Positions 9,672-45,077 of a stretch of 64,000 nt of DNA are shown here, piece after piece (within the stretch, counting starts at the first letter, position 1; every line of letters starts with the position of its first letter). The translations under genes and the position numbers were made by a program. Origin of the DNA: an archaeon (lineage in GTDB: Archaea; Hydrothermarchaeota; Hydrothermarchaeia; Hydrothermarchaeales; BMS3B); contig JALSIP010000051.1 in NCBI GenBank assembly GCA_026989875.1, positions 1,161 to 65,160 of the forward strand, written 5' to 3'. Under the pieces are notes generated by a model. It was not told the origin of the DNA. It made no database searches and saw only the letters and a list, made by a program, of their open reading frames with translations.

Positions 9672-11116
9672 TGCTCCAGTACCTCATACTCCTGCCGCTT
9701 GCAGGCGCCATCGCGAGCTATTTCGCCGGCAGGCAGAGCAGCTCAGCCCCCAGGATAGTTGCCCTGGCGGTTAGCGTGGCAACCCTCGGCATAGCGGCGG
9801 CGGTGCTCAGAGCTGCTCCAGCCCAGGGGTTCATGAAGGAGCAGCTCAGCCTGAGCTGGATACCCAGCTTAGACATAGGCTTCACCCTCGGTGCTGATGC
9901 CCTGAGCGCGGCGCTGGTGGGGCTGACTGCACTTCTGGTGCTGGTGTCGGTGCTCGCTTCCTGGGATGTGGAGCACCGCTCCGGAAGCTACCACGCCTAC
10001 CTGCTGTGCATGCTTGCAGGTTTGATGGGCGTTTTCACGGCGCTTGACCTGTTCCTCTTCTTCCTGTTCTGGGAGATTGTGCTCATTCCCGCCTTCATGC
10101 TGGTAAACGGCTGGGGTGGAGAGAACAGGAAGTATGCAGCCATGAAGCTGCTCATCTACACCCACCTGGGCAGCCTGCTCATGCTGGTGGGCTTCCTGCT
10201 GATGTATGCACAGACGCACACCTTCTCCATGCTTGAGATGCGCCAGCTTCTCGGCGGAGAGAGCATGGAGTACAGGACGCTGGTGTTCCTGCTGGTTTTC
10301 GCGGGCTTCGCCTTCAAGATTCCCTTAGTGCCCTTCCACTCCTGGCTTCCGGATGCATACTCCCAGGCACCCACACCTGTGACAATCCTGCTTGCGGGGG
10401 TGCTCTCCAAGATGGGTGCCTACGGTCTTGTGAGGGTGGCTCTCGGCATCCTCCCGGCAGAGTTTGCGGTGTTCGCAAAGGCTATAGCGATAATGGCTCT
10501 GGTCACCGTCTTCTATGCAGCATTCTGCGCCCTTGCCCAGAACGAGGTTAAGCGGCTTCTCGCCTTCTCCAGCCTATCCCACATGGGCTTCCTGGTGCTG
10601 GGTGTGGCGAGCCTCTCCTTCATAGGCATGAAGGGCGCCATATTCCAGATGGTCAGCCACGGGCTGATAATAGCGCTGCTCTTCTTCTGCGCGGGCATGC
10701 TGGCGGCGAGGGGCTACGAGCTCAGAATCTCAAGGCTGGGCGGCGTGCTCAGGAGCTCGCCGCTGCTCGGCTGGGTCATAGTGTTTGCCTCCATGGCTTC
10801 TCTCGGGCTTCCGGGGCTGAGCGGCTTCGTGGCTGAGCTCAGCATTCTGCTGGGTCTGTTCCGTGAGTATCCCGTACTGGCGGGCATAGCTGTGCTCTCC
10901 CTCCCCCTGACAGCCGGCTACTACCTGTGGTTCCTGCAGCGCTCAATATACGGGGGCGATGCCGGGCTCAGGAGGAGCGGCGTAACCATGGTGGAGTTCC
11001 TGCCCGTTGCGGTTCTTGTTGCTCTGATAACCCTGCTCGGCGTTTACCCGGCACCCTTCATGGAGCTGGTTGGCAGCATAGCAGGGCAGCTTGTAAATGC
11101 GGTAGGAGGTGGCTGA
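9671..11116 (+). CDS. nuoM: complex I-like antiporter-type subunit M
   Basis: NuoM/ND4 motifs (FHSWLPDAYSQAPTPVT). Start is taken at the GTG overlapping the nuoL stop. The longer ORF from 9551 is rejected as an N-terminal extension. Confidence 0.85.
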   Translation: MLQYLILLPLAGAIASYFAGRQSSSAPRIVALAVSVATLGIAAAVLRAAPAQGFMKEQLSLSWIPSLDIGFTLGADALSAALVGLTALLVLVSVLASWDVEHRSGSYHAYLLCMLAGLMGVFTALDLFLFFLFWEIVLIPAFMLVNGWGGENRKYAAMKLLIYTHLGSLLMLVGFLLMYAQTHTFSMLEMRQLLGGESMEYRTLVFLLVFAGFAFKIPLVPFHSWLPDAYSQAPTPVTILLAGVLSKMGAYGLVRVALGILPAEFAVFAKAIAIMALVTVFYAAFCALAQNEVKRLLAFSSLSHMGFLVLGVASLSFIGMKGAIFQMVSHGLIIALLFFCAGMLAARGYELRISRLGGVLRSSPLLGWVIVFASMASLGLPGLSGFVAELSILLGLFREYPVLAGIAVLSLPLTAGYYLWFLQRSIYGGDAGLRRSGVTMVEFLPVAVLVALITLLGVYPAPFMELVGSIAGQLVNAVGGG

Positions 11117-12560
11117 AGTGCTGGCGGAGCTTCTTCCGGAGATTCTGCTGATAGGTGCGGCGCTGCTGCTGGTGCTACTCCAGGGCTTCTGCGGCAGGGA
11201 TGCCTGCGCAAAGCTTTCTGGCTACATCTCCTTAGCCGCATGCGGGGGCGCGCTGCTGCTGGTGTCCCTGCACTCTGGAGCGGGTGTTGAGCGCGTGCTC
11301 ATCCCTGAGATAATAAAGCTGGACGCCTTCAGCCTGTTCTTCAAGCTTCTCTTCCTCACCCTGAGCTTCCTGGTGATTCTGGGGTCTCTTGATGCGGTGA
11401 AGCGCTACAGGATGGGCGGCGAGTACTACACCATGCTGCTCTTCACCACCTTCGGCATGCTCATAGCAAGCATGGCGGTTGACCTGGCGGTGCTCTACAT
11501 AGCCGTGGAGCTTGCCACCATCTCAACCTTTGCGCTCGCCGCCTTCAGAAAGGACCGCCAGGGAGCAGAGGCTGGTGTGAAGTACTTCGTGATAGGTGCG
11601 CTCTCCTCGGCGCTGGTGCTCTTCGGCATATCCCTGCTCTACGGCATCGCCGGGAGCACCTCCCTCACCGCCATAGCGGAGGCGCTCGGAAGCTCCTCCG
11701 GTCCGGTGGCAAGCCTGGCGGTGGTCTTCCTCATCGCAGGCTTCGGCTACAAGATTGCGGCGGTGCCCTTCCACATGTGGGCGCCGGACACCTACCAGGG
11801 TGCACCCTCCACCGTCACCGCCTTCCTGGCGGGAGCCACAAAGAAGATGGCGTTCCTGGCGCTCATGCGCATCTTCATCGTGGCGCTCCCCGGGCTGGTG
11901 GAGAGCTGGGCGATGCTGTTTGCGGTGCTCGCGGTGCTCACCATGACCGTAGGCAACCTGGTGGCGCTGGTGCAGAGCAACATAAAGCGCATGCTCGCCT
12001 ACTCCAGCGTTGCCCAGGCAGGCTACGTGCTTGTGGCCTTTGCGGTGCTCTCCTCAAAGGCTGACCTCACCCTCGCCGCGGGGGCGGCGCTGCTGCACAT
12101 GTTCGTGCACGCCATAATGAAGGGCGGCGCCTTCCTGGCGGTGGCGGCGGCGGGCTCGGCAATCGCCGGCAGGGATATCTCCGACTTTGCCGGGCTTGGC
12201 AGGCGCATGCCGGTGACAGCCTTCACCCTGAGCATATTCCTGCTCTCCCTGGCGGGGATACCCTTCTTTGCCGGCTTCGTGAGCAAGTTCCTGATACTCA
12301 TGGCGAGCGTGAGCGCTGGCGGTGCCTACATAGCCCTGGGCGTGCTCCTGGTAATAAACAGCGTCATCTCCCTCTACTACTATGCTAAGGTGATAAGGGT
12401 GATGTACTTTGAGGGAGGGGAGGTGCACAGAGCAGAGGAGCCCGTGATGCTGGTTGCGGCGCTGGTGGTCTCAGCGATAATCGTGCTCTACGTGGGCATC
12501 TTCCCGGAATCTGCAATACAGCTGGCGAAGAGCAGCGCAGCCTCCCTCTTCACCCCCTGA
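11109..12560 (+). CDS. nuoN: complex I-like antiporter-type subunit N
   Basis: 483 aa. NuoN/ND2 motifs (FHMWAPDTYQGAPSTVTAFLA). Confidence 0.85.
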   Translation: MAEVLAELLPEILLIGAALLLVLLQGFCGRDACAKLSGYISLAACGGALLLVSLHSGAGVERVLIPEIIKLDAFSLFFKLLFLTLSFLVILGSLDAVKRYRMGGEYYTMLLFTTFGMLIASMAVDLAVLYIAVELATISTFALAAFRKDRQGAEAGVKYFVIGALSSALVLFGISLLYGIAGSTSLTAIAEALGSSSGPVASLAVVFLIAGFGYKIAAVPFHMWAPDTYQGAPSTVTAFLAGATKKMAFLALMRIFIVALPGLVESWAMLFAVLAVLTMTVGNLVALVQSNIKRMLAYSSVAQAGYVLVAFAVLSSKADLTLAAGAALLHMFVHAIMKGGAFLAVAAAGSAIAGRDISDFAGLGRRMPVTAFTLSIFLLSLAGIPFFAGFVSKFLILMASVSAGGAYIALGVLLVINSVISLYYYAKVIRVMYFEGGEVHRAEEPVMLVAALVVSAIIVLYVGIFPESAIQLAKSSAASLFTP

Positions 12561-13113
12561 GCTTCAGCACCGCCCTGGCAAGCAGCCTCGCGGTCTTCAG
12601 GGGCTCGGGCACGGCACCCTGCAGGGTGAAGCGGTCCAGCAGCCTCTTCACCTCTTCCAGCTCCGCGCCCGCAAACCTCACGAACACCCTGTAGCCGGTG
12701 CCAAGCTCCACGCTCACCCTGCTGCCGAGCCTTCTGTAGGCGCTGAGCCTGCGCTCAGCCTGCTCCCGCTCTCTCAGGAACCTCTCAATCCCGGGGCTGT
12801 CCTCGTAGCTCACGCACACCACGGGCAGGGAGGTTGCAAGGTGGACCTCCTCAAGCTCAACGATGTTGAACATGCTAATTATGCATCCGTTGAGCATTAT
12901 TGCATTGATGTCCCTGCGTCCGAGCGACTCAAAAAGCTCAATCACCGCATCTGTGGCGTCCATGCCTCCGACGGTGACCTCGCCGAGGGCGAAGCCATCA
13001 ATCTGCAGGTCTGCCCGCATGACCACGCCTGCAAGTGCCGCCTTCTCTGAGTTCTTTCTGAAGCTCTCAGCCACTCCCAGCACCCTGATACCCGGCTTCA
13101 GCCTGAGGCGCAT
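12550..13113 (-). CDS. DUF99/UPF0215 family protein (putative nuclease-like)
   Basis: 187 aa. N-terminal KPGIRVLGVAESF and the central motif resemble the archaeal UPF0215 (DUF99) family. The start lies 47 nt inside the 3' end of rad50. Confidence 0.55.
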   Translation of the reverse strand: MRLRLKPGIRVLGVAESFRKNSEKAALAGVVMRADLQIDGFALGEVTVGGMDATDAVIELFESLGRRDINAIMLNGCIISMFNIVELEEVHLATSLPVVCVSYEDSPGIERFLREREQAERRLSAYRRLGSRVSVELGTGYRVFVRFAGAELEEVKRLLDRFTLQGAVPEPLKTARLLARAVLKLRG

Positions 13114-15448
13114 TCACCCGCACCCTTGACACTCCGTTTTTCTTCTCCACCACAATCAGCACATCCGCCGCCTGCTCAAACTCCCAGTCGTGGGTCACCA
13201 CCACGGTCTGGGGCACTGCTGAAAGCTTCCTCACCACCTCCACCAGCTCCTGCCTGCGCTGCACGTCCAGGTGCACCGTGGGCTCGTCCAGCATTATGAG
13301 CTCCATTGCACCCCCAGCAAGCGCTCTGGCTATGCCCAGCCTCAGCGCCAGGGCTAAGGCAACCCTCTCGCCGCCGCTCAGCATGTCAGTGCTCACCATG
13401 CCCAGAGGTCCGTAAAGGGTGACGCTCAGGTCGTCTGAGAGCATCAGCTCGGTGTAGGGCAGGTTGAACTCCTGAAAAATCTCCCGGGTGTGCTGCTCAA
13501 TCAGCGGCATGGCTGCTTCTCTGAGCTCCCTCTGCAGGCAGTCCCTGCTGAACGCCTGGCGAATCTCAGCCAGCAGCTCTATGAACCTCTCAAGTTTCCT
13601 CCTCTCTTCAGCCTTTGAGCGCAGCTCTCCCAGCCTCTCCTCCACCGCCTTCCTCTCCTCCTTCCTGCTGTTGAGCTCCCCCCTGCACTTCCAGATGCTT
13701 CTCTCCAGCTCCCTCAGGCTCCTCTCCGCCTTCTCGCACCTGCTCACAAGGGCGCTCCTGCTCCTCTCCGGCTCCTCGCCCAGCCTCTCCTTCACAGCTT
13801 CAAGCTCCCTCCTGAGGGCATCAGCCTCCCCGGCTAAGCGTTTCAGCCTGTGCTCAATCTCCCTCTTCCTGCCTCCGTAGCGCCTCAGGTACTCCTGGGC
13901 GCTCACGTACCTGCTGTGCGCCTCCTCAAGAGCCTCAATCTCAGCCTCAAGCTTTCTGCGCTGCTCCATCAGCCTCTCAAGCCCCCCGGTGTCTCTTCTG
14001 AGCCTTTCCGCCTCCTTCTCCATATCTTTCACTCTGGTGCTCAGGCTTTCAATCTCCTCAGTGAGCCTCTGAACCTCCTGCACACGGACGCTCATACCCG
14101 CAAGCCTCTTCTCCCGCCTTCTCAGGTACCTCTCCTCCTCCATGCAGCTCTCAAGCTTTCTCCTCCACCTCTCCTCCATCTCCTCAGCATCTCCAATCTT
14201 CTTCAGGTAGCCCTGCGTGAGCTCCTCACGCTTAGCCTCGTCAATCCTGCTCCAGCACAGGGGGCATCTGCTGCCCGCCTGCTCCAGCTCCCTCAGCCTC
14301 TCTGCCAGCTCCCTCTTCTTGGTGCGAGCCTCTGCCACCCTGCGCTCGCACTCCCCCTTCTCCTGCTCCAGCTCCCTCAGCCTCTCTGCCAGCTCCTCCA
14401 TTTTCCTCTCCGCAGCCTTTCTGAACCCTTCGGCGCTCTCCACCCTCACTCCCAGAGCCTCAGATGCCTCCCTCAGTATCCCCATCACCTCCTCCTGCTT
14501 GCGCAGCACATCACCCCTGTATCTCTTCGCATGCTCTTCAATGCTCACCATGCGCGACCTCTTCTCACCCAGCTCCCTTATTCTCGCATCCAGCTCCTTT
14601 GCCTGCTTCTCAGCCTCACGGAATCTGCGCTCCTCATCCTCAAGCCTCATGAGAGTCTGCTCGTACTCCCTTATTCTTCTCAGCTCCTCCTCAGCTCCTT
14701 TCGTCTCGGCTTCAGCCTTCTCAAGTCTCAGCTTCAGCCTGCAGCCTCTCTCTGCCAGCTCCCTCAGCGACCTCAGGGATTCAAGCTCCTCCTCAGCCTT
14801 CTGCTTCTGAGCCTCAAGCACTCTGAGCCTGTCCTCCATCGCCCTTATCTCCCTCCCCAGCACCTCTGCCTTCTTCTCCGCATTCTCAATCTCTCCGTCC
14901 ACCCACCCCAGCTCAGCCAGCTTAGACTCAAAAGCCCTGATAACCTCCCTCATTCTCTCGTAAGCCTGCTCAATACGCTCTATGCCCAGGAGCTTCGCGA
15001 GCATCCGCTTTCTCACCGCGGGGTCATCTGAAAGCAAGGCGTCAATCTCTCCCTGCTGGATGTAAACAGCGCTCTTGAACAGCTTTGCATTCATCCCCGT
15101 AAGCCTCTCAATCTCCTCCGTCACCCTCCTGTCCTGCTCCAGAATGCCACTGCCCTCGCAGTAAAGCCTGCTCCCGCTCCTCGTCCCCGAGCTTCTCACC
15201 ACCCTGTACCTCCTGCCACCGCACAGGAAGCTCACCGAAACCTCCATGCTCTCCTGTCCCCGTGTTATCAGCTCGGCTATGTTGACGCCCCTCGGCTTGT
15301 CCTTGAAGAGCGCAAAGCTTATCGCCTCCAGCAGCGAGCTCTTGCCCGAGCCGTTCTCTCCAACTATGACGCTTATCCCCTCACCCAGCCTGAGCACGGT
15401 GTCACGGTGGGATTTGAAGTTCCTCAGCCTGAGCTCCTCCACCATCAT
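13067..15448 (-). CDS. rad50: DNA double-strand break repair ATPase Rad50
   Basis: N-terminal Walker A (GENGSGKSS), a long coiled coil with a zinc hook CPLCWSRID, a C-terminal signature motif (LSGGER) and Walker B/D-loop (LIMLDEPTVHLD). The ATGA start overlaps the mre11 stop. Confidence 0.9.
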   Translation of the reverse strand: MMVEELRLRNFKSHRDTVLRLGEGISVIVGENGSGKSSLLEAISFALFKDKPRGVNIAELITRGQESMEVSVSFLCGGRRYRVVRSSGTRSGSRLYCEGSGILEQDRRVTEEIERLTGMNAKLFKSAVYIQQGEIDALLSDDPAVRKRMLAKLLGIERIEQAYERMREVIRAFESKLAELGWVDGEIENAEKKAEVLGREIRAMEDRLRVLEAQKQKAEEELESLRSLRELAERGCRLKLRLEKAEAETKGAEEELRRIREYEQTLMRLEDEERRFREAEKQAKELDARIRELGEKRSRMVSIEEHAKRYRGDVLRKQEEVMGILREASEALGVRVESAEGFRKAAERKMEELAERLRELEQEKGECERRVAEARTKKRELAERLRELEQAGSRCPLCWSRIDEAKREELTQGYLKKIGDAEEMEERWRRKLESCMEEERYLRRREKRLAGMSVRVQEVQRLTEEIESLSTRVKDMEKEAERLRRDTGGLERLMEQRRKLEAEIEALEEAHSRYVSAQEYLRRYGGRKREIEHRLKRLAGEADALRRELEAVKERLGEEPERSRSALVSRCEKAERSLRELERSIWKCRGELNSRKEERKAVEERLGELRSKAEERRKLERFIELLAEIRQAFSRDCLQRELREAAMPLIEQHTREIFQEFNLPYTELMLSDDLSVTLYGPLGMVSTDMLSGGERVALALALRLGIARALAGGAMELIMLDEPTVHLDVQRRQELVEVVRKLSAVPQTVVVTHDWEFEQAADVLIVVEKKNGVSRVRVNAPQAEAGYQGAGSG

Positions 15449-16560
15449 CTCCCACCACCCCACCTTCTGCTGAAGAACTCCTCCGCAACCTTTACCGCAT
15501 CCTCGGTTCTTCCATCCTCTAAGAGCCTCAGGAGCTCGGCGGCAAAGCTTCGCTCTGCCTCGCTGCGCTCCCTGAGGTAGCTGCCGAGAAGCTCGTAAAC
15601 GTCCAGCCCCTTAGCCGGCGACGCTCTCCGCTCTTCCTCCTGACTCAGTCTGCGCACATCCACATAAAGCACTCTGTCTGCAAGCCGCCTCATCACCTCC
15701 GAGTATAGCCTCTGAAAGCTCTCAGTCCTGCACTGCAGCTCAAGCCTCACCACGGGCTTGCCGTCGCCAGGCTCTGGAAGCGCCTCCAGCTCCTCTTCGG
15801 AGCTCACCCTGAGCTTCACAAACCTGCGCACGCTCCTGAGCTTCACCCACTCCACCTCCTCCGGCTCCTTCGCCTCTGTGTCAGCCAGGTAGAATCCCTT
15901 GCCCATCTTCTCGTACACTTCAATTTCGTCGCCTCTCCACACCTCAGTTGAGCCTGGATATGCCACGATTCCGCCGGCATAGCTGTCCAGCAGGGGCTTG
16001 TGCACGTGCCCCAGGGCGTAGTAGCTGAATCCCGCGGGCAGCTCGTTCATCCTGAGCTCGTAACCCACACCCAAGTAGCGGTCTATTCCCTGGTGGAGCA
16101 GGAGCACGCTTCTCCTGTGCCTCTCTGCCAGCTTCTCCAGCTCCGCCAGCCTCTCCAGCAGCACCCTGCTGTGGAGCTTTGAGAAGTAGGGCAGACCCGC
16201 TATCAGCACGTCTCCGTGCACCCTGGCGGGCTTTTTCGGTGTAAGAAACTCCATCTCGGGGTACAGCCTGTGGGGCGGCACAGCTCCGCTTCGCATCAGC
16301 AGGTCGTGGTTGCCGGCGATGCAGTAGAACTTTATGCCCTCTTCCCTCAGCCTCTCCAGCTCCTCCCGCACCACCACCAGCGCCTTGACATGGGGGCGGG
16401 GCTCGTCAAACAGGTCGCCGCTGTGCACCACAAACCTGCACCCCTCGTCTATTATCCTGTCAACTGCCTCGCGGAAACTCCTGTAGAAGTCCTCCTCCCG
16501 CTCGTCCAGGTTGTACTGCCTGTAGCCCAGGTGGGTGTCTGCAATGTGCGCAAACAGCAT
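15445..16560 (-). CDS. mre11: DNA repair nuclease Mre11 (calcineurin-like phosphoesterase)
   Basis: Phosphoesterase motifs I-V (HIADTHLG, HSGDLFD, GNHD, GHVH) and Mre11 length. It is directly upstream of rad50. Confidence 0.9.
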   Translation of the reverse strand: MLFAHIADTHLGYRQYNLDEREEDFYRSFREAVDRIIDEGCRFVVHSGDLFDEPRPHVKALVVVREELERLREEGIKFYCIAGNHDLLMRSGAVPPHRLYPEMEFLTPKKPARVHGDVLIAGLPYFSKLHSRVLLERLAELEKLAERHRRSVLLLHQGIDRYLGVGYELRMNELPAGFSYYALGHVHKPLLDSYAGGIVAYPGSTEVWRGDEIEVYEKMGKGFYLADTEAKEPEEVEWVKLRSVRRFVKLRVSSEEELEALPEPGDGKPVVRLELQCRTESFQRLYSEVMRRLADRVLYVDVRRLSQEEERRASPAKGLDVYELLGSYLRERSEAERSFAAELLRLLEDGRTEDAVKVAEEFFSRRWGGGR

Positions 16561-16571
16561 GAAGCTAAGCT

Positions 16572-17342
16572 TTACTCCGCGGAGGTATTAAGATTTTCCT
16601 GTACGAAGGTGGCGTTGGTTACGAGCACCCTGAAGACTGTGTGGTAGCCTATGTCCACGTTTCTCTCCACCACGCCCTCAGCGATGACAACCTCACCCTC
16701 CACCACGCCGGCGCTGCTGCTGGTGAAGATCAGCTCGCTTCCCTCCGGAGCGGAGGTGCCGTCCTGCAGGTGCACCCAGGTGAGGTTCATTATTCCCGGC
16801 AGCACCTTTGTTACAACACCCCTCACCCTCACCACCCTGCCCTCAAGGTCTCCAGCTTTCTGGAGAACCTCAGCCACGGTGTAGCCGTCTTCAAGCTTCG
16901 GGACGCTGGTGTTGAAGGGAAGCTCCTCAATCAGCGAGTCGCTCATCAGCATCACCTCAAGGGTTCTGTTCAGCGCCCCGGCAGAGAAGTCCAGCATCAC
17001 CAGAGCGCCGCTCAGGTTGAGGCGCATGCCCTCCTTAACCGCAGCCCTGGGTCCTGCCACCCAGATGCTGGCGTTCCCGTCTCCCAGCTTCACGTAGGTG
17101 TAGCCCCCTGCCTGAACCACCTGCTCAGCCACACCCGAGGTGCTCACGAGCGTGCCCTCAAGCGCCTGCCCCTGTGCCAGTATCTCGGCAATGCTCAGCT
17201 CCTGTATCTCCGGTGCTATGTCCTGAGCACCTCCGGGCATATTCATCTCGTCCTCAATGCTCAGGTACCTCACCGGCTTTTCAGAGCTCTGGGTGCAGGC
17301 TGAGGCGAGCAGCACGAGCACCAGCAGCATAAAGCCTCTCAA
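16572..17342 (-). CDS. exported (signal peptide/lipobox-like) protein with two tandem OB-fold (BOF/YgiW-like) domains and about seven N-glycosylation sequons
   Basis: N-terminal MRGFMLLVLVLLASAC signal. There are two repeats of the type V.E.L..G...G..V.V.G.V...L.....W..LqDGT. Sequons NAS, NLS, NRT, NTS, NLT, NAT and NTS are present. Confidence 0.55.
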   Translation of the reverse strand: MRGFMLLVLVLLASACTQSSEKPVRYLSIEDEMNMPGGAQDIAPEIQELSIAEILAQGQALEGTLVSTSGVAEQVVQAGGYTYVKLGDGNASIWVAGPRAAVKEGMRLNLSGALVMLDFSAGALNRTLEVMLMSDSLIEELPFNTSVPKLEDGYTVAEVLQKAGDLEGRVVRVRGVVTKVLPGIMNLTWVHLQDGTSAPEGSELIFTSSSAGVVEGEVVIAEGVVERNVDIGYHTVFRVLVTNATFVQENLNTSAE

Positions 17343-18049
17343 AGCTCCAGGTCCTCCTTGGAGTATATGGTGAATCTGCCGTCCTGGTAGAGCAGCGGGA
17401 AGTAGTGGGTGTCGTGATGGGTGGAGCGCATCTTTACCACGCCGATGTACCTCTCTAAGGAGGTCAGTATTCCTCCGCGGCGCTGGAAGAGCAGGTGTAT
17501 TATGCCGTCGCTGAGGAACTCCTCCACGCCGTGCTCGCCGTACCTTCCGCCCCCGGGAGGCATCTCGGATATCAGGAAAGCCGTGAAGTCAAGCTCGCTT
17601 AGCGCCCTGAAGAAGAAGTATATTTCAGCCCTGACGTTCCTGAGGGCGGTGAGGGTGTACATGGCATTCAGAGAGTCAATAACCAGGAGCTCATAACCCT
17701 TCTCCTCCTTTGCCTCGCTGAGATAGCCGGAAATTTTCTTTATCCAGTTCTCTCCGCGGTACCTCTTCATCCGCTCTCGTATGTCATCAAAGCTCACCAC
17801 GTCAACGGCATTCCTCTCCATCTCCAGCCTCTTCATCTGGGTCAGCAGGCTCACCGGGTCCTGCTCCAAGGTTATGTACAGCCCTGCGGCGTCGCTGTAA
17901 ACGGCGTTGTTGTAGAGAATGCTGTAGGCTAAGGAGGACTTCATCGTACCTGCGGTGCCGCAAATCAGAACAACGCTCTTTTTTGGTATGCCTCCCTCAA
18001 GGCGCTCATCCAGCCCCCTTACGAATGTTCTGACCCTCTCAACTTCCAT
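17339..18049 (-). CDS. KaiC/RadA-paralog (aRadC-like) ATPase with a degenerate Walker A
   Basis: The N-terminal motif FVRGLDERLEGGIPKKSVVLICGTAGTMKS is KaiC-like, but the P-loop is GTAGTMKS (Met replaces the conserved Gly). Walker B LLVIDSL is intact. ATGA overlap with the downstream exported-protein gene. Confidence 0.65.
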   Translation of the reverse strand: MEVERVRTFVRGLDERLEGGIPKKSVVLICGTAGTMKSSLAYSILYNNAVYSDAAGLYITLEQDPVSLLTQMKRLEMERNAVDVVSFDDIRERMKRYRGENWIKKISGYLSEAKEEKGYELLVIDSLNAMYTLTALRNVRAEIYFFFRALSELDFTAFLISEMPPGGGRYGEHGVEEFLSDGIIHLLFQRRGGILTSLERYIGVVKMRSTHHDTHYFPLLYQDGRFTIYSKEDLEL

Positions 18050-18062
18050 CCCTCTTAACTTG

Positions 18063-18078
18063 TGGCTACTGGTTTATA
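18063..18078 (-). promoter_or_regulatory. putative TATA box for the aRadC-like/OB-fold/mre11/rad50 operon
   Basis: The reverse complement reads aacaatataaacc. It lies about 20 nt upstream of the 18049 start, suggesting a leaderless transcript. Confidence 0.3.
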
Positions 18079-18297
18079 TTGTTAACGCAGAGGTAAAGAC
18101 GACTGTGGCGGGGTGTATGGTGGTGCATGCCGGGGATGCACTGACATTCTCTTCTCAGCACGTCAGCCCTTTATCACCAGCCCGCTCATACTCTTAGCGA
18201 GCACATGCACCACCCAGCCTGCCCTCACGCTTCAGCTTCTGATAGGCGAGCTTTGCTATTCCGCCGGCGATGTGCACCTCTGGCTTCTCCACCTCCC

Positions 18298-19140
18298 TTA
18301 CTTTTTCTTTATGTACTCCTCTAAGGGGGCGATTATCTCTATAACACCGAGCTCTGTGATTTCAAACACCCAGGTGCGTGAGTCGTGAGGCGCAAGGCGG
18401 CAGCCGTCTATGCGCAGGGTGCGCAGCACACTTCCTACAGGCAGGCGGTACAGCGACACATCCCAGCGGGTCTCAACAATCTTCTTGTCCAGCACTATGG
18501 TGCCGTCCAGGATGTGCGCCACCGCCAGGCCGCCTGCTGCCTCTGCGCTCTCGCTCGCCTGCGCAGAGCGTTTCTGGGAAACCAGCAGTGCCGTCTGGCG
18601 CCACCTTTTCAGAAAGCTGAAGAACTGCCTCACAATCTGCCTTGCCGCCACCTCCCTGTGCTCGTACAAGCCTGTGATGCTGTCTATCACCACGTTTGTA
18701 ATCTTCTTCTCTCTGATCGCATAGCCCATGGTGTCCAGCAGCGCCTTACTTGTTCTGAGCTCCTCGCTGGCTGAAGCATCTATAACCACCACATTCCTCT
18801 CCACCTGCGAGAAGTCTCTGCCCATAGCCTCGCTCTTCTGCTTCAGTGCCGTGTAGAGAAAGTTTGCGGGGCTCTCCACCGTAACGTAAAGCACCCTGTA
18901 GCCGGCGCCCGCCTGGGCGACGGCGAACTGCTCTGCAAGGATGCTCTTGCCGGTGTCGGGAATGCCCGTGACGTTGAGCACCGCTAAGTGGGGTATTCCT
19001 CCGAGAGGTTTTCGCCTGTAGCCTCCGTCAGTCTTCTCAATACTGAAGAATAGCTCATCCAGCCTGGTGCCCGTGGGTATTCCAAACAGCTTAGACGCCT
19101 CATCCCTGAGCTCCCCGAGGCTGAAGTACTCCCCCGCCAT
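18298..19140 (-). CDS. KaiC/RadA-paralog (aRadC-like) ATPase, canonical P-loop
   Basis: LDELF..GG.P...V.NVTGIPDTGKSILAEQF gives Walker A GIPDTGKS, and Walker B is VVIDSI. PF06745-like KaiC family. Confidence 0.7.
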   Translation of the reverse strand: MAGEYFSLGELRDEASKLFGIPTGTRLDELFFSIEKTDGGYRRKPLGGIPHLAVLNVTGIPDTGKSILAEQFAVAQAGAGYRVLYVTVESPANFLYTALKQKSEAMGRDFSQVERNVVVIDASASEELRTSKALLDTMGYAIREKKITNVVIDSITGLYEHREVAARQIVRQFFSFLKRWRQTALLVSQKRSAQASESAEAAGGLAVAHILDGTIVLDKKIVETRWDVSLYRLPVGSVLRTLRIDGCRLAPHDSRTWVFEITELGVIEIIAPLEEYIKKK

Positions 19141-27542: not shown

Positions 27543-29024
27543 GTGGTTCTGATGAAGCTTCCGCAGGCATTGCTCAGGTGCAGTGTTGAGCCTCTCATAG
27601 AGGAGAGCAACCTGGTGAGAGAGGCTAAGCAGGTTAAGTCGCTGGCTTACGTGGCGCTGCCGTGTCAGATGCAGGCTGTGAGAAAGGCGCAGCTCATGCT
27701 GCACAGAACACGCCAGGAGTGGCCCAGAAAGGTTAAGCTGGTAATCGGGCTGTTCTGCGCGGAGAGCTTCCCCTATGAGGAGCTGGTGAAGGTTGTGGAG
27801 AGCAAGGGGCTCAGCATGGACAGGATACGAAAGTGGGACATAAAGGGCAAGCTTCTGGGGTATCATGAGGAGGGCGTGCTCAAGATATCCCTGAAGGAGG
27901 CGAAGAAGTTTGCCAGAAGCAACTGCAGGTACTGCACCGACTACACCGCGGAGCTTGCTGACGTGAGCATAGGCGCGGTGGGCTCTGCTAAGGGCTGGAA
28001 CACGGTGATTGTGAGAACCCTGAGGGGGCTGAAGGCTGTCAGGGGCGCCATTGAGGCAGGTTATCTGGAGGTCAGGGAGCCTGACCTGGAGGGCGAGCGC
28101 GGGATACCGCTGCTGCGCAAGCTTGCCAAGCGCAAGCTCAGCACGGCAAAGAAGAACAGGGGCAAGGCTGAGGAGAAGGGCATGCGTGTCATGCACTTAG
28201 AGACCATGCACGAGAGAGACCTGAAGAAGCTTGAGGAGATGACAACAAAGGAGCACCGCATTGATGAGCTCCTCAGGGATGTGGTTGAGCCGGGGCTGTG
28301 CGTTACCTGCGGCGTCTGCGAGGCGGTTTGTGCGGAGAGCATCATAAAGATAGGTGAGGATGGCATGCCCCGCAAGCTCAGGGACTGCGAGTCCACGGAC
28401 TGCGGCAGGTGCTATGCCCTGTGCCCGAGGACCACGCTGCCCGCAGATGCGATTGAGGAGGAGCTCTTCGGAATCAGGAGGGTCAGCTACGAGGCAAGGG
28501 TGCTGGGGCAGTTCATAGAGATTCTGTCCTGCAGGGCTGGCAGGGAGGCTATCAGGAAGGTGGGGCAGGACGGCGGCGCTACAACGGCGCTGCTCGCATA
28601 CCTGCTGGATACCGGAGAGGTAGATGCAGCGGTGAGCGTCACTCAGGGGGAGAAGCCCTGGTATCCGGTGAGCTTTATCTCAACCACCAGCGGAGATGTG
28701 CTGAGATGCGCGGGCACAATTTACAGCACCGCCCCCACCATAGTGGCTGTGAAGCGTGCCCTGAGCCAGCACGAGGACTTCAGGAGGTACCTGAACTTCC
28801 TGCGTGAGAGGGGGCTGCTGCCGGAGCTGGAGCTGGTGGAGAGGCTGGCGAAGCCGCCGCTGGCTGCAGAGACGGCGCAGGTGGATGAGGAGGAGCTGAT
28901 GGCAAGAAGAAGAAAGGTTGAGGCGGCGATTGAGAGGCTGGCAAAGCCGGCGGTGAAGATGATGGTTGAGCAGGGCAAGGCTGAGAGGGCGGTTGAGCTG
29001 GTGGTGAAGGAGGGCGATGCATGA
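27543..29024 (+). CDS. F420-binding FrhB/FpoF-family oxidoreductase with circularly permuted domain order (FrhB_C - 2x[4Fe-4S] - FrhB_N)
   Basis: aa 35-170 carry the FrhB C-domain motifs (ALPCQMQAVRK...GLFC...C.YC.DYTAELADVSIGAVGS...TVIVRT). The middle region has CVTCGVCEAVC and C....CGRCYALCP. aa 330-400 carry the FrhB N-domain motif GQDGGATTALLAYLLDTGEVDAAV. The gene has its own TATA at 27508-27515. Confidence 0.7.
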   Translation: MVLMKLPQALLRCSVEPLIEESNLVREAKQVKSLAYVALPCQMQAVRKAQLMLHRTRQEWPRKVKLVIGLFCAESFPYEELVKVVESKGLSMDRIRKWDIKGKLLGYHEEGVLKISLKEAKKFARSNCRYCTDYTAELADVSIGAVGSAKGWNTVIVRTLRGLKAVRGAIEAGYLEVREPDLEGERGIPLLRKLAKRKLSTAKKNRGKAEEKGMRVMHLETMHERDLKKLEEMTTKEHRIDELLRDVVEPGLCVTCGVCEAVCAESIIKIGEDGMPRKLRDCESTDCGRCYALCPRTTLPADAIEEELFGIRRVSYEARVLGQFIEILSCRAGREAIRKVGQDGGATTALLAYLLDTGEVDAAVSVTQGEKPWYPVSFISTTSGDVLRCAGTIYSTAPTIVAVKRALSQHEDFRRYLNFLRERGLLPELELVERLAKPPLAAETAQVDEEELMARRRKVEAAIERLAKPAVKMMVEQGKAERAVELVVKEGDA

Positions 29025-29821
29025 GGCTGGGTGTGCTGAAGACAGGGAACATAGCCACGTCTCTGGTGCTGGAGCTGCTGCTGGATGAGCGCGCCGACAG
29101 GGAGCTGGAGGTGGATGTTTTTTCCACAGGCGCAAAGATGAGCCCGAAGGATGCTGAGAGGCTGCTGTCCTCGGTGAGGCTTGACAGCTACGCTCTGGTG
29201 GTTTATGTTACTCCAAACCCGGCAACTCCGGGACCGAAGAGGGTTATTGAGGCGCTGGCTGGAAGAAGAGCGGTGGTAATAGGGGATGCGCCGGGGATGA
29301 AGCTCAGGGACTGGCTGGAGGAGCTGGGGCTGGGGTACATCTTCGTGAAGGCGGACGCGATGATAGGCGCGAGGCGGGAGTTCCTGGACCCGAATGAGAT
29401 GGTGCTCTTCAACTCGGACATGCTCAGGGTGCTGGCGGTAACGGGCGCACTGAGGGTTGTGCAGGAGGAGATTGACAGAGCCATTGAGAGCAGCGATTAC
29501 CTGCCACGAGTGGTGGTGGATGCAGAGCTTGCGGCTGAGGCGGCTGGCTTCACCAGCCCCTACGCCAGAGCTAAGGCGATTGCCGCGTACAGGGCGTGCT
29601 CCTTAGTGGCTGAACTGAACACCTCCGCCTGCTTTGGCATGAAGGAGATGGAGAGGTATGTGCAGACCTGCGCTGCCGCCCACGAGCTGCTGCACTCCCT
29701 TGCGGAGATGTGCGATGAGGCGCTGGAGATGGAGAAGCACCAGGATTCGCTGCTCAGAACACCCCACGCCAGGGACGGCAGGAGGCTTAGAAAGCGCAGG
29801 CTGATGGAGAAGCCGGGGTGA
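29021..29821 (+). CDS. mtd: F420-dependent methylene-tetrahydromethanopterin dehydrogenase
   Basis: Strong Mtd signature throughout (GNIATS..LELLLDERADR, TPNPATPGPK, VVIGDAPGMKLRD, GLGYIFVKADAMIGARREFLDPNEM, LRTPHARDG). 266 aa. Confidence 0.9.
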   Translation: MRLGVLKTGNIATSLVLELLLDERADRELEVDVFSTGAKMSPKDAERLLSSVRLDSYALVVYVTPNPATPGPKRVIEALAGRRAVVIGDAPGMKLRDWLEELGLGYIFVKADAMIGARREFLDPNEMVLFNSDMLRVLAVTGALRVVQEEIDRAIESSDYLPRVVVDAELAAEAAGFTSPYARAKAIAAYRACSLVAELNTSACFGMKEMERYVQTCAAAHELLHSLAEMCDEALEMEKHQDSLLRTPHARDGRRLRKRRLMEKPG

Positions 29822-30576
29822 TGCTGACCTTCTCCCTTCCGCTGCCCGCAGGCACCTGCGATGCCTGCGGCGCATGCGTGTATGCCTGTCCGGAAGGCGC
29901 TGTTACGCTGGATGAGAGGCACAGGCTGAGGGTGGAGCATGAGAGGTGCACCCGCTGCCTCAGGTGCGTTGAAGCATGCAGGGACAGGGAGGCGCTCAGG
30001 CCCGAGCTGCACGGCTACCTGCCTGGCTTTGACTGCTCGGAGTGCGGCTATGAGGACTGCGAGAGCTTTGCCGAGGGTGTGACTCAAGCGGAAGAGCTGC
30101 GGAGGTGCCCCCACCTCGGCGGGAGGATGCGCAGGGCGCTGGAGCTGATTCTCAGGAGCGAGCTACTGCCGGAGGTCAGGGTGAGCGACAGCCAGCTTCC
30201 AACGCCTCACGGCGTGTTTCCCGTGGGGAGCCCCGGGAAGCGTTCGCCTGTAATTGCCACCTCCGACTACCTGCACACGGTTATGACGCTCACTGCAGCG
30301 CTTGAGCACTGCAGCATAGACGCTTACTTAGCGGTGGTGCCGGCTGAGGGGTACTGCATGAGGCTTGCGGTTACCCTGGGAACGCTGAGGCTTGAGAGGC
30401 TGCCCGAGATTCTGAGGGAGGTGGAGCACAGGGTTGAGCACAGGGTGGTGATTCTGCCCAGGGCGGTGGAGACAAGACGGGCTGGCAGCTGGAGGGTGGT
30501 GCATGCCCCGAGCAGGGCTGAGGAGCTCCCGGCGTTTCTCTTAGCCTTTTCCAGGGCTTACGGGCTGAGGGTCTGA
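29818..30576 (+). CDS. iron-sulfur protein: 2x[4Fe-4S] ferredoxin + RnfB-N-type Fe-S domain (CxxCGxxxCxxFAE) + uncharacterised C-terminal domain
   Basis: CDACGACVYACP and CTRCLRCVEAC, then DCSECGYEDCESFAEG (PF04060-like). The C-terminal ~130 aa have no recognised homolog. ATGA overlap with mtd. Confidence 0.6.
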   Translation: MMLTFSLPLPAGTCDACGACVYACPEGAVTLDERHRLRVEHERCTRCLRCVEACRDREALRPELHGYLPGFDCSECGYEDCESFAEGVTQAEELRRCPHLGGRMRRALELILRSELLPEVRVSDSQLPTPHGVFPVGSPGKRSPVIATSDYLHTVMTLTAALEHCSIDAYLAVVPAEGYCMRLAVTLGTLRLERLPEILREVEHRVEHRVVILPRAVETRRAGSWRVVHAPSRAEELPAFLLAFSRAYGLRV

Positions 30577-31109
30577 GCTATGTGCTCTGCAAGTGCACCG
30601 AAGCTCCTGCTCCAGTCAGATACCGCAAGCCTCTCCTGCGGGCTCATCTGTGCAAGACTCTTGGAGCTGCCGAGGGGCACGAACAGGGTATCAAGCCAGT
30701 GCTCCGAGCTCCCCACGGGGCGCTCCGCTATGGTGCCGTGAAGCTCGCCCGTGAATATCTTCACCTCCCCGGCAATGCGCACACCTATGGCTGAGCGGAA
30801 GTACGCCTGCTTGGGAAGGGGGGCGAGAAGGCGCAGCAGGTGGCGTGGCTTCAGCACCTGCTGAATGTAGGCGGTGATGGTGCCGGGGAAGCCGCTCAGG
30901 GCGGGAATGAACAGCCCCGAGTCTTCGGCTACTGCGGGCTCGTGAGCGGCAGAGGCTAAGGCATGGCGCACAACCTGCTCGCAGGTGCGTGCCTGAATCT
31001 CGGGTGCTGGCTCTTCCTGAACAATCTCGCACTCTGCTCCTTTCTCTGCAAGCAGAGTGTGCAGCAGCTCTATCTTGCGGGGGTTGCGGGTGTAGAAGTG
31101 GAGCCTCAT
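30558..31109 (-). CDS. non-canonical purine NTP pyrophosphatase (Ham1/ITPase family)
   Basis: N-terminal MRLHFYTRNPRKIEL, EDSGL and FVP motifs of the Ham1/RdgB family. 183 aa. Confidence 0.75.
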   Translation of the reverse strand: MRLHFYTRNPRKIELLHTLLAEKGAECEIVQEEPAPEIQARTCEQVVRHALASAAHEPAVAEDSGLFIPALSGFPGTITAYIQQVLKPRHLLRLLAPLPKQAYFRSAIGVRIAGEVKIFTGELHGTIAERPVGSSEHWLDTLFVPLGSSKSLAQMSPQERLAVSDWSRSFGALAEHIAQTLSP

Positions 31110-31112
31110 CGG

Positions 31113-31646
31113 CTAAAGCACACCTGCCCTGAGGTACATGCCTATTCCTGTGAGCACCGCAAGCACGTAGCTTGCTATACCAAGAATACCTGTCAGAATG
31201 TGGAGCTGCTCGCTCCTGCCCGTGCCGTGCCTGAAGAATCTACCCCTGTTGAGCATGCCCCACAGGAAAGAGGCGGTGAGCAGCAGCGTGGAGAGGGTGA
31301 TGAAGATGACGTGGGGCACGAGCAAGCCGGTGGCTCTGAAGGCTTCCCTGCCCCCGGCTATCTCCAGGGCTATGCCTCGCTCGTAGCCGTAGTACAGCGC
31401 AAGGGCGAGGAGGAAGAGCAGGTAGGCGGCATACATGAGCTGTGGGTGCCTGCTGGGCAGCCTTGCGGGCGAGCGCATGGAAATCATACCATCCACGGCG
31501 CCGGCTATGAAGAGAACCATGGCTGCAAGCAGGATGTAGGGGTGGTAGAGCATGCGATATAGTGGTGCCGCGTGATTTATAAAGGATGCGGTGGCGCAGG
31601 GGGTGCTCTGCAAAGGCTTATATAGCGTGGTGAGGAAAGTCAGCAC
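31113..31646 (-). CDS. small polytopic membrane protein, possibly DUF420-like (cytochrome-oxidase-associated)
   Basis: Four predicted TM segments in about 140-177 aa. It is divergent from the cbb3 oxidase genes. The family assignment is tentative. Confidence 0.35.
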   Translation of the reverse strand: MLTFLTTLYKPLQSTPCATASFINHAAPLYRMLYHPYILLAAMVLFIAGAVDGMISMRSPARLPSRHPQLMYAAYLLFLLALALYYGYERGIALEIAGGREAFRATGLLVPHVIFITLSTLLLTASFLWGMLNRGRFFRHGTGRSEQLHILTGILGIASYVLAVLTGIGMYLRAGVL

Positions 31647-31741
31647 TGCAAGGAGGGAGGTGGCTGAGGCGCAGCACTGCCGCAGGGTGGCTCTTCATCT
31701 CCGCTGCAGCCTGGCTCGGCATAGCGGTCACCTTAGCTCTG

Positions 31742-33025
31742 GTGCTGGCGGTGAAGTTTGTTTACCCTGACTTTCTCTCAGGCTATGCCTGGCTGCAGTT
31801 CGGCAGGCTTCGCCCGGTGCACGTCACCTTAGCTGCCTTCGGCTGGCTCTCCATGGTGCAGGTGGCAATGGCTTACTACGCCGTGCCCCGCCTTGCTAAG
31901 CGGGAGCTGTACAGCGAGAGGCTTGCAAGGCTGAGCGTGCTCCTCTGGAACCTCTTCATCCTCCTCGCCGCCGCAACGCTTCTTGCAGGAATGACGCAGG
32001 GCAGGGAGTATGCAGAGCTTGTCTATCCCCTTGACCTGCTCTTCCTGCTGCTTCTGGGCGTGGTTGCCTACAACCTGGTGCGCACGGTTCTGGCAAGGAG
32101 GGAGGAGAAGCTCTACGTCAGCCTCTGGTACTTCCTGGCGGCGCTGGTGTGGATGCCGGTGGTTTACTTTGTGGGCAACGCCATGTGGGCTGGAGGAGCG
32201 CTCTACGGTGTTAACGACGCCATAGTCAACTGGTTCTACGGGCACAACATCTTAGGGCTGTGGTTCACGCCCCTCGGCGTGGGTGCTGCCTACTACCTGC
32301 TGCCGAAGCTGGTGAGGAAGCCCCTCTACAGCCACAGGCTATCGCTTCTGGGCTTCTGGACGCTGGGGCTCTTCTACCCCTGGGTGGGTACCCACCACCT
32401 GATTTTCGGTCCCGTACCCGTGTGGGCGCAGACGGTTGCAATTGCCGCAAGCGTTGCCATGCTTCTGCCCGTGCTGGCGGTGACGGTGAACTTCTGGAAG
32501 ACCATTGAGGGCAGGTGGCACCTGCTCTCGCAGGCGGAGCAGGGCAGGCGCTTTGCCCAGAGCGACTGCACAGCTTTAAAGTTTCTGGTGCTGGGAGGAG
32601 TGTGGTACCTGCTCACCTGCCTGCAGGGTCCCTTCCAGGCGCTAAGGGCTGTGCAGCCGTATGTGCACTTCACCAACTGGGTTGTGGCACATGCCCACCT
32701 TGCCCTTCTTGGAGCCTTCAGCTTCTGGGGGTTTGCGTGCATCTACTACGTCATGCCCAGGCTGACCGGTAAAGAGCTCAGCCCGCGGCTTGCAAGGGCT
32801 CACTTCTACCTGCTCACCCTCGGCTTGAGCGGCTTCGTGGCGAGCCTCACCATAGCGGGGCTGATTCAGGGTAGCTCGTGGCAGGCGGGTGTGGCTTTCG
32901 TGAAGGTGGTGGCGGCGCTTAAGCCCTACCTAATCGTAAGGCTTGCCTCGGCGGCGCTCATGGTAGCCTCGGTTTATCTCTTCCTGTACGCCTTCTTCAG
33001 CTCGCTGCGGGGGGTGCAGAGGTGA
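31742..33025 (+). CDS. ccoN: cbb3-type (C-family) heme-copper oxidase catalytic subunit CcoN
   Basis: Ligand patterns are R..H...AAFGW (heme b His), WFYGHN (CuB His), GTHHLIFGP (CuB HH) and VVAHAHLALLG (heme b3/b His). Only 427 aa from the first canonical start. An in-frame upstream hydrophobic segment (31634-31741) would supply TM1. Confidence 0.8.
   Translation: MLAVKFVYPDFLSGYAWLQFGRLRPVHVTLAAFGWLSMVQVAMAYYAVPRLAKRELYSERLARLSVLLWNLFILLAAATLLAGMTQGREYAELVYPLDLLFLLLLGVVAYNLVRTVLARREEKLYVSLWYFLAALVWMPVVYFVGNAMWAGGALYGVNDAIVNWFYGHNILGLWFTPLGVGAAYYLLPKLVRKPLYSHRLSLLGFWTLGLFYPWVGTHHLIFGPVPVWAQTVAIAASVAMLLPVLAVTVNFWKTIEGRWHLLSQAEQGRRFAQSDCTALKFLVLGGVWYLLTCLQGPFQALRAVQPYVHFTNWVVAHAHLALLGAFSFWGFACIYYVMPRLTGKELSPRLARAHFYLLTLGLSGFVASLTIAGLIQGSSWQAGVAFVKVVAALKPYLIVRLASAALMVASVYLFLYAFFSSLRGVQR

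Positions 33026-42908: not shown

Positions 42909-45077
<2,169 letters not shown>

What the first reader, a model, noticed from the sequence alone, without database searches (positions are those of the whole stretch)
12550..13113. DUF99/UPF0215 nuclease-like gene translationally coupled to rad50
The ORF starts 47 nt inside the 3' end of rad50 on the same strand, implying co-transcription. The DUF99 family is poorly characterised, and I recall it being proposed as endonuclease-like. A fixed association with Mre11-Rad50 would suggest a role in DNA end or damaged-base processing.
Basis: inference. Interest (0 to 1): 0.5.

Follow-up and report, generated by a model that had tools for sequence, protein, structure and literature searches.

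The report
Uracil-DNA endonuclease gene appended to rad50
The gene is real and belongs to the DUF99 family, shown in 2024 to be 'endonuclease dU', which nicks DNA next to uracil; it overlaps the end of rad50 by 47 bases, but only in this archaeon and one close relative, so this is a local gene arrangement, not a general partnership with Mre11-Rad50.

Summary

The interpretation needs two corrections. First, the family is no longer uncharacterised: Li et al. 2024 (PMC11585767) named it Endonuclease dU, which cleaves 3' of deoxyuridine without metal ions. Second, the Rad50 link is not fixed. Of 90 non-redundant loci encoding relatives (45-75% identity), only this organism and one relative (75% identity, same 47-nt overlap) have rad50/mre11 nearby. 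The nearest other Rad50 genes (Hydrothermarchaeota-like) have no Endo_dU downstream, and one such assembly carries Endo_dU on another contig.

The layout therefore reflects a single lineage-specific relocation, which also gave Rad50 a ~14-aa C-terminal tail. Cooperation with Mre11-Rad50 (Mre11 3'-5' exonuclease removing the nicked dU) is attractive but untested. Verdict: ordinary member of a known family in an unreported but narrow operon context; low to moderate interest.

The parts
12550..13113 (-). endo_dU coding sequence (187 aa, ATG 13113..13111, TGA 12552..12550); PF01949 Endonuclease dU / DUF99 / UPF0215
   Evidence: dN/dS is 0.25 against the 75%-identical orthologue, and GC3 (0.80) matches the neighbouring genes.
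13067..13113 (-). 47-nt stretch read in two frames: the last 15 sense codons plus the stop of rad50, and the first 15.7 codons of endo_dU
   Evidence: 40 of 47 nt are identical in the relative L020. In the Rad50 frame it encodes part of a ~14-aa tail (APQAEAGYQGAGSG) that is absent from the nearest other Rad50 proteins.
13121..13127 (-). Shine-Dalgarno-like AAGGGTG, 7 nt upstream of the endo_dU ATG, inside rad50 codons
   Evidence: The relative has a perfect GGAGGTG at the same position. Other internal operon genes here (nuoN, nuoM, nuoL, rad50) carry GGAGGTG or AGGTGG at similar spacing. Function is inferred.
13067..15448 (-). rad50 (793 aa from ATG 15448; the ORF list extends to GTG 15463); 4-nt ATGA overlap with mre11
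15445..16560 (-). mre11 (371 aa); a TATA-like TTAATA lies at 16586..16591 upstream
   Evidence: The promoter assignment is inferred from sequence only.
16572..18049 (-). Probable upstream members of the same transcription unit: a lipoprotein-like 256-aa gene (16572..17342) and a KaiC-like ATPase gene (17339..18049). An AATATAAA box lies at 18073..18080.
   Evidence: The spacings are a 4-nt overlap and an 11-nt gap. Operon membership is inferred.
11109..12560 (+). Convergent nuoN-like gene whose last 11 nt overlap the 3' end of endo_dU; it marks the end of the unit

Best explanation
This is a canonical member of the Endonuclease dU (DUF99/UPF0215, PF01949) family, a small EndoV-like RNase H-fold enzyme. 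The family's biochemical characterisation reports that it nicks single- or double-stranded DNA immediately 3' of deoxyuridine without needing metal ions, which starts an alternative excision repair of deaminated cytosine or misincorporated uracil.

In this archaeon and its closest known relative, the gene has been relocated to the 3' end of the mre11-rad50 unit (probably kaiC-like / lipoprotein-like / mre11 / rad50 / endo_dU). The relocation removed the old rad50 stop codon. Rad50 now reads 47 nt into endo_dU and carries a ~14-aa tail.

endo_dU is transcribed as the last cistron of that mRNA. It is translated from ATG 13113 through a Shine-Dalgarno-like element embedded in rad50 codons. Ribosomes finishing rad50 probably help by opening a small hairpin that pairs the SD with codons 2-4.

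Shown: gene, family, fold, start codon, overlap, conservation in one relative, absence of the linkage elsewhere. Inferred: co-transcription, the mode of translation, enzymatic activity in this protein, and any functional cooperation with Mre11-Rad50.
For: Family and fold:
- PF01949 at E 7e-57, full length; NCBIfam 'endonuclease dU' is the best hit.
- The motif III residues G50, D52 and T54 are invariant. R176 sits at the position of AfuEndo_dU H166, which the paper describes as H/R/K.
- Purifying selection: dN/dS 0.25.

Activity of the family: PMC11585767.

Start codon and overlap.

Operon-internal character:
- SD-like AAGGGTG here and GGAGGTG in the relative, 7 nt upstream, as in other internal genes.
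- Genes that look like first cistrons (kaiC2, mre11) instead carry TATA-like boxes at -24 to -31.
- The A-rich stretch upstream of endo_dU is not conserved in the relative.
- The same small hairpin over the SD is predicted in both genomes.

Lineage-specific relocation:
- Only 2 of 90 non-redundant loci carry rad50.
- The next-closest Endo_dU genes follow TP_methylase, CofC or GCHY-1 genes, or stand alone.
- The nearest other rad50 genes end at a convergent gene with no Endo_dU.
- The Rad50 tail is found only in the two linked genomes.
Against: - There are no transcript or protein data, so an internal promoter cannot be excluded from sequence alone.
- The hairpin region folds no better than shuffled sequence (z -0.01 and +1.34).
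- The window protein is only 27% identical to the assayed A. fulgidus enzyme.
- It scores below the NCBIfam equivalog cutoffs (175.8 < 200; 104 < 235).
- It has Ala at the position of Afu D10. The paper found D10A alone to be active and says only half the family has this Asp.
- My own caution about the family's reported biochemistry: it is unusual (EDTA-resistant, and the enzyme from a hyperthermophile is inactivated at 65 C) and rests on one study.
Confidence: 0.7

Rival explanations
1. Endo_dU is a true functional partner of Mre11-Rad50 in this lineage. It nicks 3' of dU, leaving the lesion at or next to a 3' end. The Mre11 3'->5' exonuclease, loaded by Rad50, then removes the uracil-containing stretch before gap filling. 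Alternatively, Mre11-Rad50 handles the breaks that arise when Endo_dU cuts uracil in single-stranded DNA at forks or resected ends.
For: - Tight physical linkage (47-nt overlap) inside a DNA-repair operon, conserved between two genomes whose Rad50 proteins are only 60% identical.
- The family acts on DNA and cuts 3' of the lesion, so a 3'->5' exonuclease is the logical next step (PMC11585767).
- A 3'->5' exonuclease activity of Mre11 is established knowledge.
- The downstream steps of the Endo_dU pathway are explicitly unknown.
Against: - The linkage represents one evolutionary event in 90 sampled lineages.
- The whole 16-kb region is syntenic between the two genomes, so conservation of the adjacency carries little extra weight.
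- There are 84 different neighbour families across 90 loci. My rough estimate is that one chance landing next to a repair gene is expected.
- Elsewhere the reported partner is UDG.
Confidence: 0.2
2. The DUF99 protein has taken the role of NurA, the RNase H-fold nuclease encoded next to rad50 in many thermophilic archaea, and works in DNA end resection rather than uracil repair.
For: - It occupies the slot directly after rad50, where nurA sits in Sulfolobus-type herA-mre11-rad50-nurA operons (that gene order is from my own knowledge).
- No NurA or HerA domain was found among the ORFs of the 64-kb window that were scanned.
Against: - The protein is an ordinary PF01949 member with the family's own motifs and lacks a full DEDD set (A15, R176).
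- There is no HerA partner nearby.
- NurA/HerA may lie elsewhere in the genome, which was not visible here.
- Orthologues at 60-64% identity sit in unrelated contexts.
Confidence: 0.05
3. The overlap is incidental. endo_dU is transcribed mainly from its own promoter inside the 3' part of rad50 and is regulated independently.
For: - An A-rich stretch (GAAGAAAAAC, about -33 to -23 from the ATG) sits at the distance expected for an archaeal TATA box of a leaderless mRNA.
- Internal promoters within archaeal operons are common (my own knowledge).
Against: - The A-run is not conserved in the relative (GAAGAAGGAGG), whereas the SD-like element is.
- The stretch lacks the T/A alternation seen upstream of kaiC2 (AATATAAA) and mre11 (TTAATA).
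- The gene has an SD, like the internal cistrons, rather than the leaderless layout of the putative first genes.
Confidence: 0.12

Closest known systems
AfuEndo_dU (AF_1433, PDB 2QH9), Endonuclease dU of Archaeoglobus fulgidus (Li et al. 2024, PMC11585767)
   Different: Only 27% identical. Ala replaces D10. The window protein belongs to a different clade, closer to the NCBIfam haloarchaeal model than to PRK00766. Its activity has not been assayed.
Haloarchaeal Endo_dU-UDG gene pair (Haloferax volcanii, Halobacterium salinarum; PMC11585767)
   Same: Endo_dU is placed in an apparent operon with another DNA-repair gene.
   Different: The partner there is uracil-DNA glycosylase, lying downstream with a 24-27 bp gap. 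Here the partner is mre11-rad50, lying upstream with a 47-nt overlap. No UDG domain was found among the ORFs of the 64-kb window that were scanned.
Endonuclease V (Nfi, PF04493)
   Different: There is no Pfam EndoV hit. The DEDD tetrad is incomplete. The family cuts at dU rather than dI and is reported to be metal-independent.
NurA in archaeal herA-mre11-rad50-nurA operons
   Different: It is a different family, no HerA is nearby, the linkage is confined to one lineage, and the size differs (187 aa against ~320-400 aa).

Membership tests
Endonuclease dU (PF01949, DUF99/UPF0215) | Full-length match to the family HMM above the curated threshold | tested here: met
   192.2 bits against a cutoff of 32.7, E 7.1e-57, profile positions 2-181 of 182
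Endonuclease dU (PF01949, DUF99/UPF0215) | EndoV-like RNase H fold as in AF_1433 (2QH9) | tested here: met
Endonuclease dU (PF01949, DUF99/UPF0215) | Conserved motifs: G-D-T (motif III) and a positively charged residue (H/R/K) in the last helix at the position of Afu H166 (motif VII) | tested here: met
   G50, D52 and T54 are invariant in alignment A1. R176 aligns with chain H169 (= H166) of 2QH9 and is invariant in A1.
Endonuclease dU (PF01949, DUF99/UPF0215) | First Asp of the DEDD set (Afu D10). This is NOT defining: the paper reports it in only about half of the members, and D10A alone is active. | tested here: not met
   Ala15 occupies this position and the neighbouring Glu16 is invariant (paper statements)
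Endonuclease dU (PF01949, DUF99/UPF0215) | Cleavage of DNA 3' of deoxyuridine | not testable with these tools
   Known only for five assayed homologues
NCBIfam equivalogs EndoDuHalo (NF052283) / PRK00766 (NF001977) | Score above the equivalog cutoff | tested here: not met
   175.8 < 200 and 104 < 235. The protein is a family member but not an equivalog of either curated subgroup.
Conserved Mre11-Rad50 accessory gene (as claimed by 'fixed association') | Adjacency to rad50/mre11 recurring in independent lineages | tested here: not met
   Only 2 of 90 non-redundant loci, which are sister genomes, have it. Rad50 relatives at 41-43% identity lack it.
NurA (PF09376) of HerA-NurA | NurA domain match and an adjacent HerA ATPase | tested here: not met
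Endonuclease V (PF04493) | Family HMM match and a complete DEDD metal-binding tetrad | tested here: not met

The most novel reading that the evidence does not exclude
In this Hydrothermarchaeota-like lineage, Endo_dU has been recruited as a working partner of Mre11-Rad50. It nicks 3' of uracil, and the Mre11 3'->5' exonuclease excises the lesion. This would identify the missing downstream step of the Endo_dU (and possibly EndoV-type) alternative excision repair pathway.
Probability: 0.15. Interest if true: 0.55.

Novelty: new member of a known kind. Interest (0 to 1): 0.25.

Why it matters
The downstream steps of the Endo_dU pathway are unknown (PMC11585767). An operon that joins it to a 3'->5' exonuclease complex gives one concrete, testable candidate for that step. 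However, the linkage is a single lineage-specific event, so it is a weak lead and not evidence of a general mechanism. The main value of this check is corrective: the family now has a name and an assayed activity, and the Rad50 association is not a family trait.

Tried and rejected
- Mis-called start: rejected. 13113 is the first start codon after the upstream stop, homologues align from the N-terminus, and M32 would remove invariant residues.
- Sequencing or assembly artefact creating the overlap: rejected. The identical layout appears in independent assemblies of this organism (L022, L023) and of a 75%-identical relative (L020, L021, L029).
- Recent horizontal insertion: no support. GC (0.617) and GC3 (0.80) match the neighbouring genes.
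- Bacterial-type promoter and terminator scan: uninformative for an archaeon. It found one promoter-like site inside the 256-aa gene and nothing near the junction.
- RNA structure at the junction: a 7-bp hairpin over the SD is predicted in both genomes, but overall folding is no better than shuffles. It is kept only as a weak hint.
- A recurrent DNA-repair neighbour of this Endo_dU clade: none found. The commonest neighbours are TP_methylase (9 loci), cytidylyltransferase (7), TFS-like zinc ribbon (6), GINS (6), TFB (6), RNase III-like (5), GT2 (5) and a Toprim protein (5).
- Second copy in the window: none.
- Further literature: only the 2024 JBC paper describes the family, and it does not mention Rad50 or Mre11.
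- Not done: distant Endo_dU clades (Afu-like, TACK, bacterial, haloarchaeal) were barely sampled for context.

Full report
**1. What is there.**
The ORF list shows a 187-aa ORF on the minus strand at 12550..13113, with ATG at 13113..13111 and TGA at 12552..12550.
- On the same strand upstream lie rad50 (13067..15448 from its ATG; the mechanical ORF extends to a GTG at 15463) and mre11 (15445..16560). mre11 and rad50 share a 4-nt ATGA overlap.
- The rad50 stop (13069..13067) lies 47 nt downstream of the endo_dU ATG, so the stated overlap is exact.
- The 3' end of endo_dU overlaps by 11 nt the stop region of a convergent nuoN-like gene (11109..12560, plus strand).

**2. Family and fold.**
- Pfam gives one hit: PF01949, now named 'Endo_dU, Endonuclease dU'. 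E is 7.1e-57 over profile positions 2-181 of 182.
- NCBIfam's best hit is the 'endonuclease dU' model NF052283, at 175.8 bits. This is below its equivalog cutoff of 200.
- The only solved relative by sequence is AF_1433/2QH9 (E 1.7e-16).
- An AlphaFold model built on 17 homologues is confident (pLDDT 93.7, pTM 0.90).
- The rad50 and mre11 assignments are supported by NCBIfam Rad50 and Mre11 models (E 1e-91 and 4e-64, below the equivalog cutoffs) and by Pfam SMC_N and Metallophos hits.

**3. The start codon and how the gene is probably expressed.**
- The ATG at 13113 is the first start codon after the upstream in-frame stop.
- In an alignment with 16 homologues of 54-75% identity, the N-terminal M-x-L-H-x-x-K-x-G-x-R-x-L-G block is shared. 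The next Met (M32) would delete invariant residues.
- Seven nucleotides upstream of the ATG, inside rad50 codons, lies AAGGGTG (13127..13121). The closest relative has a perfect GGAGGTG at the same place and uses GTG as its start.
- Other internal cistrons in this region (nuoN, nuoM, nuoL, rad50) have GGAGGTG-type elements at similar spacing.
- Genes that look like first cistrons instead have TATA-like boxes 24-31 nt upstream and no SD: kaiC2 has AATATAAA at 18073..18080, and mre11 has TTAATA at 16586..16591.
- The A-rich stretch about 23-33 nt upstream of endo_dU comes from Lys codons of Rad50 and is not conserved in the relative.
- I therefore infer that endo_dU is the last cistron of an mre11-rad50 mRNA. 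That mRNA may start further upstream at the KaiC-like gene, given a 4-nt overlap and an 11-nt gap.
- I also infer that translation uses SD-dependent initiation.
- A 7-bp hairpin pairing the SD with codons 2-4 is predicted in both genomes. The region folds no better than shuffled sequence (z -0.01 and +1.34). Coupling by ribosome unwinding is therefore possible but unproven.

**4. What the family does.**
That has changed.
- Li et al. (J Biol Chem 2024, PMC11585767) purified five DUF99 proteins, from A. fulgidus, a Halobacterium, a gammaproteobacterium, and Loki- and Thorarchaeota.
- They reported cleavage immediately 3' of deoxyuridine in ssDNA and in the dU strand of dsDNA.
- They saw no activity on dI, AP sites, mismatches or RNA.
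- Activity persisted in EDTA. It was lost in the D10A-H166A double mutant of the A. fulgidus enzyme, whereas D10A alone was active.
- Mapping through the 2QH9 alignment (chain numbering runs three ahead of the paper's), the window protein has Ala15 at D10, Glu16 at the adjacent acidic position, and Arg176 at H166.
- E16 and R176 are invariant among the 17 aligned homologues, as is the G50-x-D52-A-T54 motif.
- This fits the paper's description: only half the family has the first Asp, and motif VII carries H, R or K.
- Between this genome and its relative, dN/dS is 0.25 for the non-overlapping part of endo_dU, similar to mre11 at 0.29.
- My own caution: the reported biochemistry is unusual, rests on one study, and the hyperthermophile enzyme was heat-labile. 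Activity in this protein is inferred.

**5. Is the Rad50 association fixed? No.**
- The exact protein and a 75%-identical orthologue (whose Rad50 is 60% and Mre11 69% identical) share the whole layout: two KaiC-like genes, a 256-aa gene, mre11, rad50, endo_dU with the same 47-nt overlap, and a convergent nuo operon.
- I collected 19 loci from species-representative genomes, 80 from metagenomes and several by exact look-up.
- After collapsing at 95% identity, this gave 90 distinct Endo_dU loci at 33-75% identity; all but one (L019) are 45% or higher. Of the 108 loci before collapsing, 61 had at least 2.5 kb of upstream sequence.
- tblastn with this Rad50 and Mre11 (E <= 1e-3) found them only in the window's own contigs and in the 75% relative.
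- The next-closest orthologues (60-64% identity) follow a TP_methylase gene, stand alone, follow a CofC gene, or follow a GCHY-1 gene.
- In the reverse direction, the closest other Rad50 proteins (36-43% identity, one of them labelled Candidatus Pyrohabitans, Hydrothermarchaeota) sit in 253-263-aa gene / mre11 / rad50 units. Where the downstream flank is visible, the next gene is a convergent one and not Endo_dU (in one search the contig ends inside rad50).
- The Pyrohabitans assembly carries its Endo_dU on another contig, preceded by chorismate synthase and GCHY-1 genes.
- Compared with those Rad50 proteins, which end ...GVSRVVEVS, the two linked genomes have a ~14-aa extension (APQAEAGYQGAGSG / APKAEAGYQGSGDS). 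This is the rad50-frame reading of the endo_dU 5' end.
- The simplest history is one relocation of endo_dU onto the end of rad50 in the common ancestor of these two genomes, with loss of the old rad50 stop.
- Immediate neighbours across the 90 loci fall into 84 families. The commonest are TP_methylase, a cytidylyltransferase, TFS, GINS, TFB, an RNase III-like protein, a glycosyltransferase and a Toprim protein.
- The gene is thus a frequent mover. One landing next to a repair operon is about what chance would give (my rough estimate).

**6. Mechanism and rivals.**
- Best-supported reading (confidence about 0.7): an ordinary Endo_dU that nicks 3' of uracil. In this lineage it is expressed as the terminal cistron of the mre11-rad50 operon.
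- Functional cooperation (about 0.2): it is mechanistically attractive, because a nick 3' of the lesion calls for a 3'->5' exonuclease. That is an established activity of Mre11, and the paper states that the downstream steps are unknown. The comparative evidence for it is one evolutionary event.
- Independent internal promoter (about 0.12): it cannot be excluded without transcript data.

**7. Verdict.**
The family and probable co-transcription hold, 'poorly characterised' is outdated, and the 'fixed association' is refuted.
- The gene is a new member of a known, recently characterised family in a narrow, previously unreported operon context. Interest is low to moderate (0.25).
- The most novel reading still open is a real Endo_dU / Mre11-Rad50 repair partnership. 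I put it at about 15% probability, and it would be of moderate interest (0.55) if shown.

Noticed in passing
window 16572..17342 (-); homologues at L020:3788-4549, L109:2972-3733, L110:2969-3733, L111:2868-3659: A 256-aa protein with no Pfam or NCBIfam hit, carrying an N-terminal signal peptide and a lipobox-like Cys. Homologues (42-70% identity) sit directly upstream of mre11 in all five related genomes examined. This linkage to mre11-rad50 is far more conserved than that of Endo_dU, which is odd for a predicted secreted lipoprotein.
   Followed up: partly
window 17339..18049 (-) and 18298..19140 (-): Two KaiC-like ATPase genes (PF06745, E 1e-42 and 8e-53) lie upstream of the mre11-rad50 unit. 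The proximal one overlaps the 256-aa gene by 4 nt and has an AATATAAA box at 18073..18080. They may be RadA-paralogue-type repair ATPases belonging to the same unit.
   Followed up: partly
window 13067..15448 (-): This Rad50 is short (793 aa, against ~880-915 aa in most archaeal hits). Its zinc-hook match falls below the Pfam threshold (22.9 < 24.3 bits), although a CPLC motif is present. This implies a shortened coiled coil in this lineage and in its Hydrothermarchaeota-like relatives (785-796 aa).
   Followed up: no
window 30558..31109 (-): A Ham1/ITPase-family gene (PF01725, E 3e-29), which cleanses the nucleotide pool of deaminated purine nucleotides, lies about 17 kb from endo_dU. It is not linked to it.
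   Followed up: no
window 27543..33897: cbb3-type oxidase genes (COX1 at 31742..33025; FixO plus cytochrome c at 33022..33897) lie close to H4MPT/F420-type genes (MTD at 29021..29821; FrhB-like at 27543..29024). A catalase-peroxidase is at 42909..45038. Together these suggest oxygen respiration or tolerance in an archaeon with methanogen-type C1 enzymes.
   Followed up: no
L107:4239-4811, L108:5617-6051, L077:5617-5982, L064:5590-6582: In other lineages of this Endo_dU clade, recurrent neighbours are information-processing genes: GINS (Sld5 domain), a small Toprim protein, TFS and TFB. None is a classical repair gene.
   Followed up: partly
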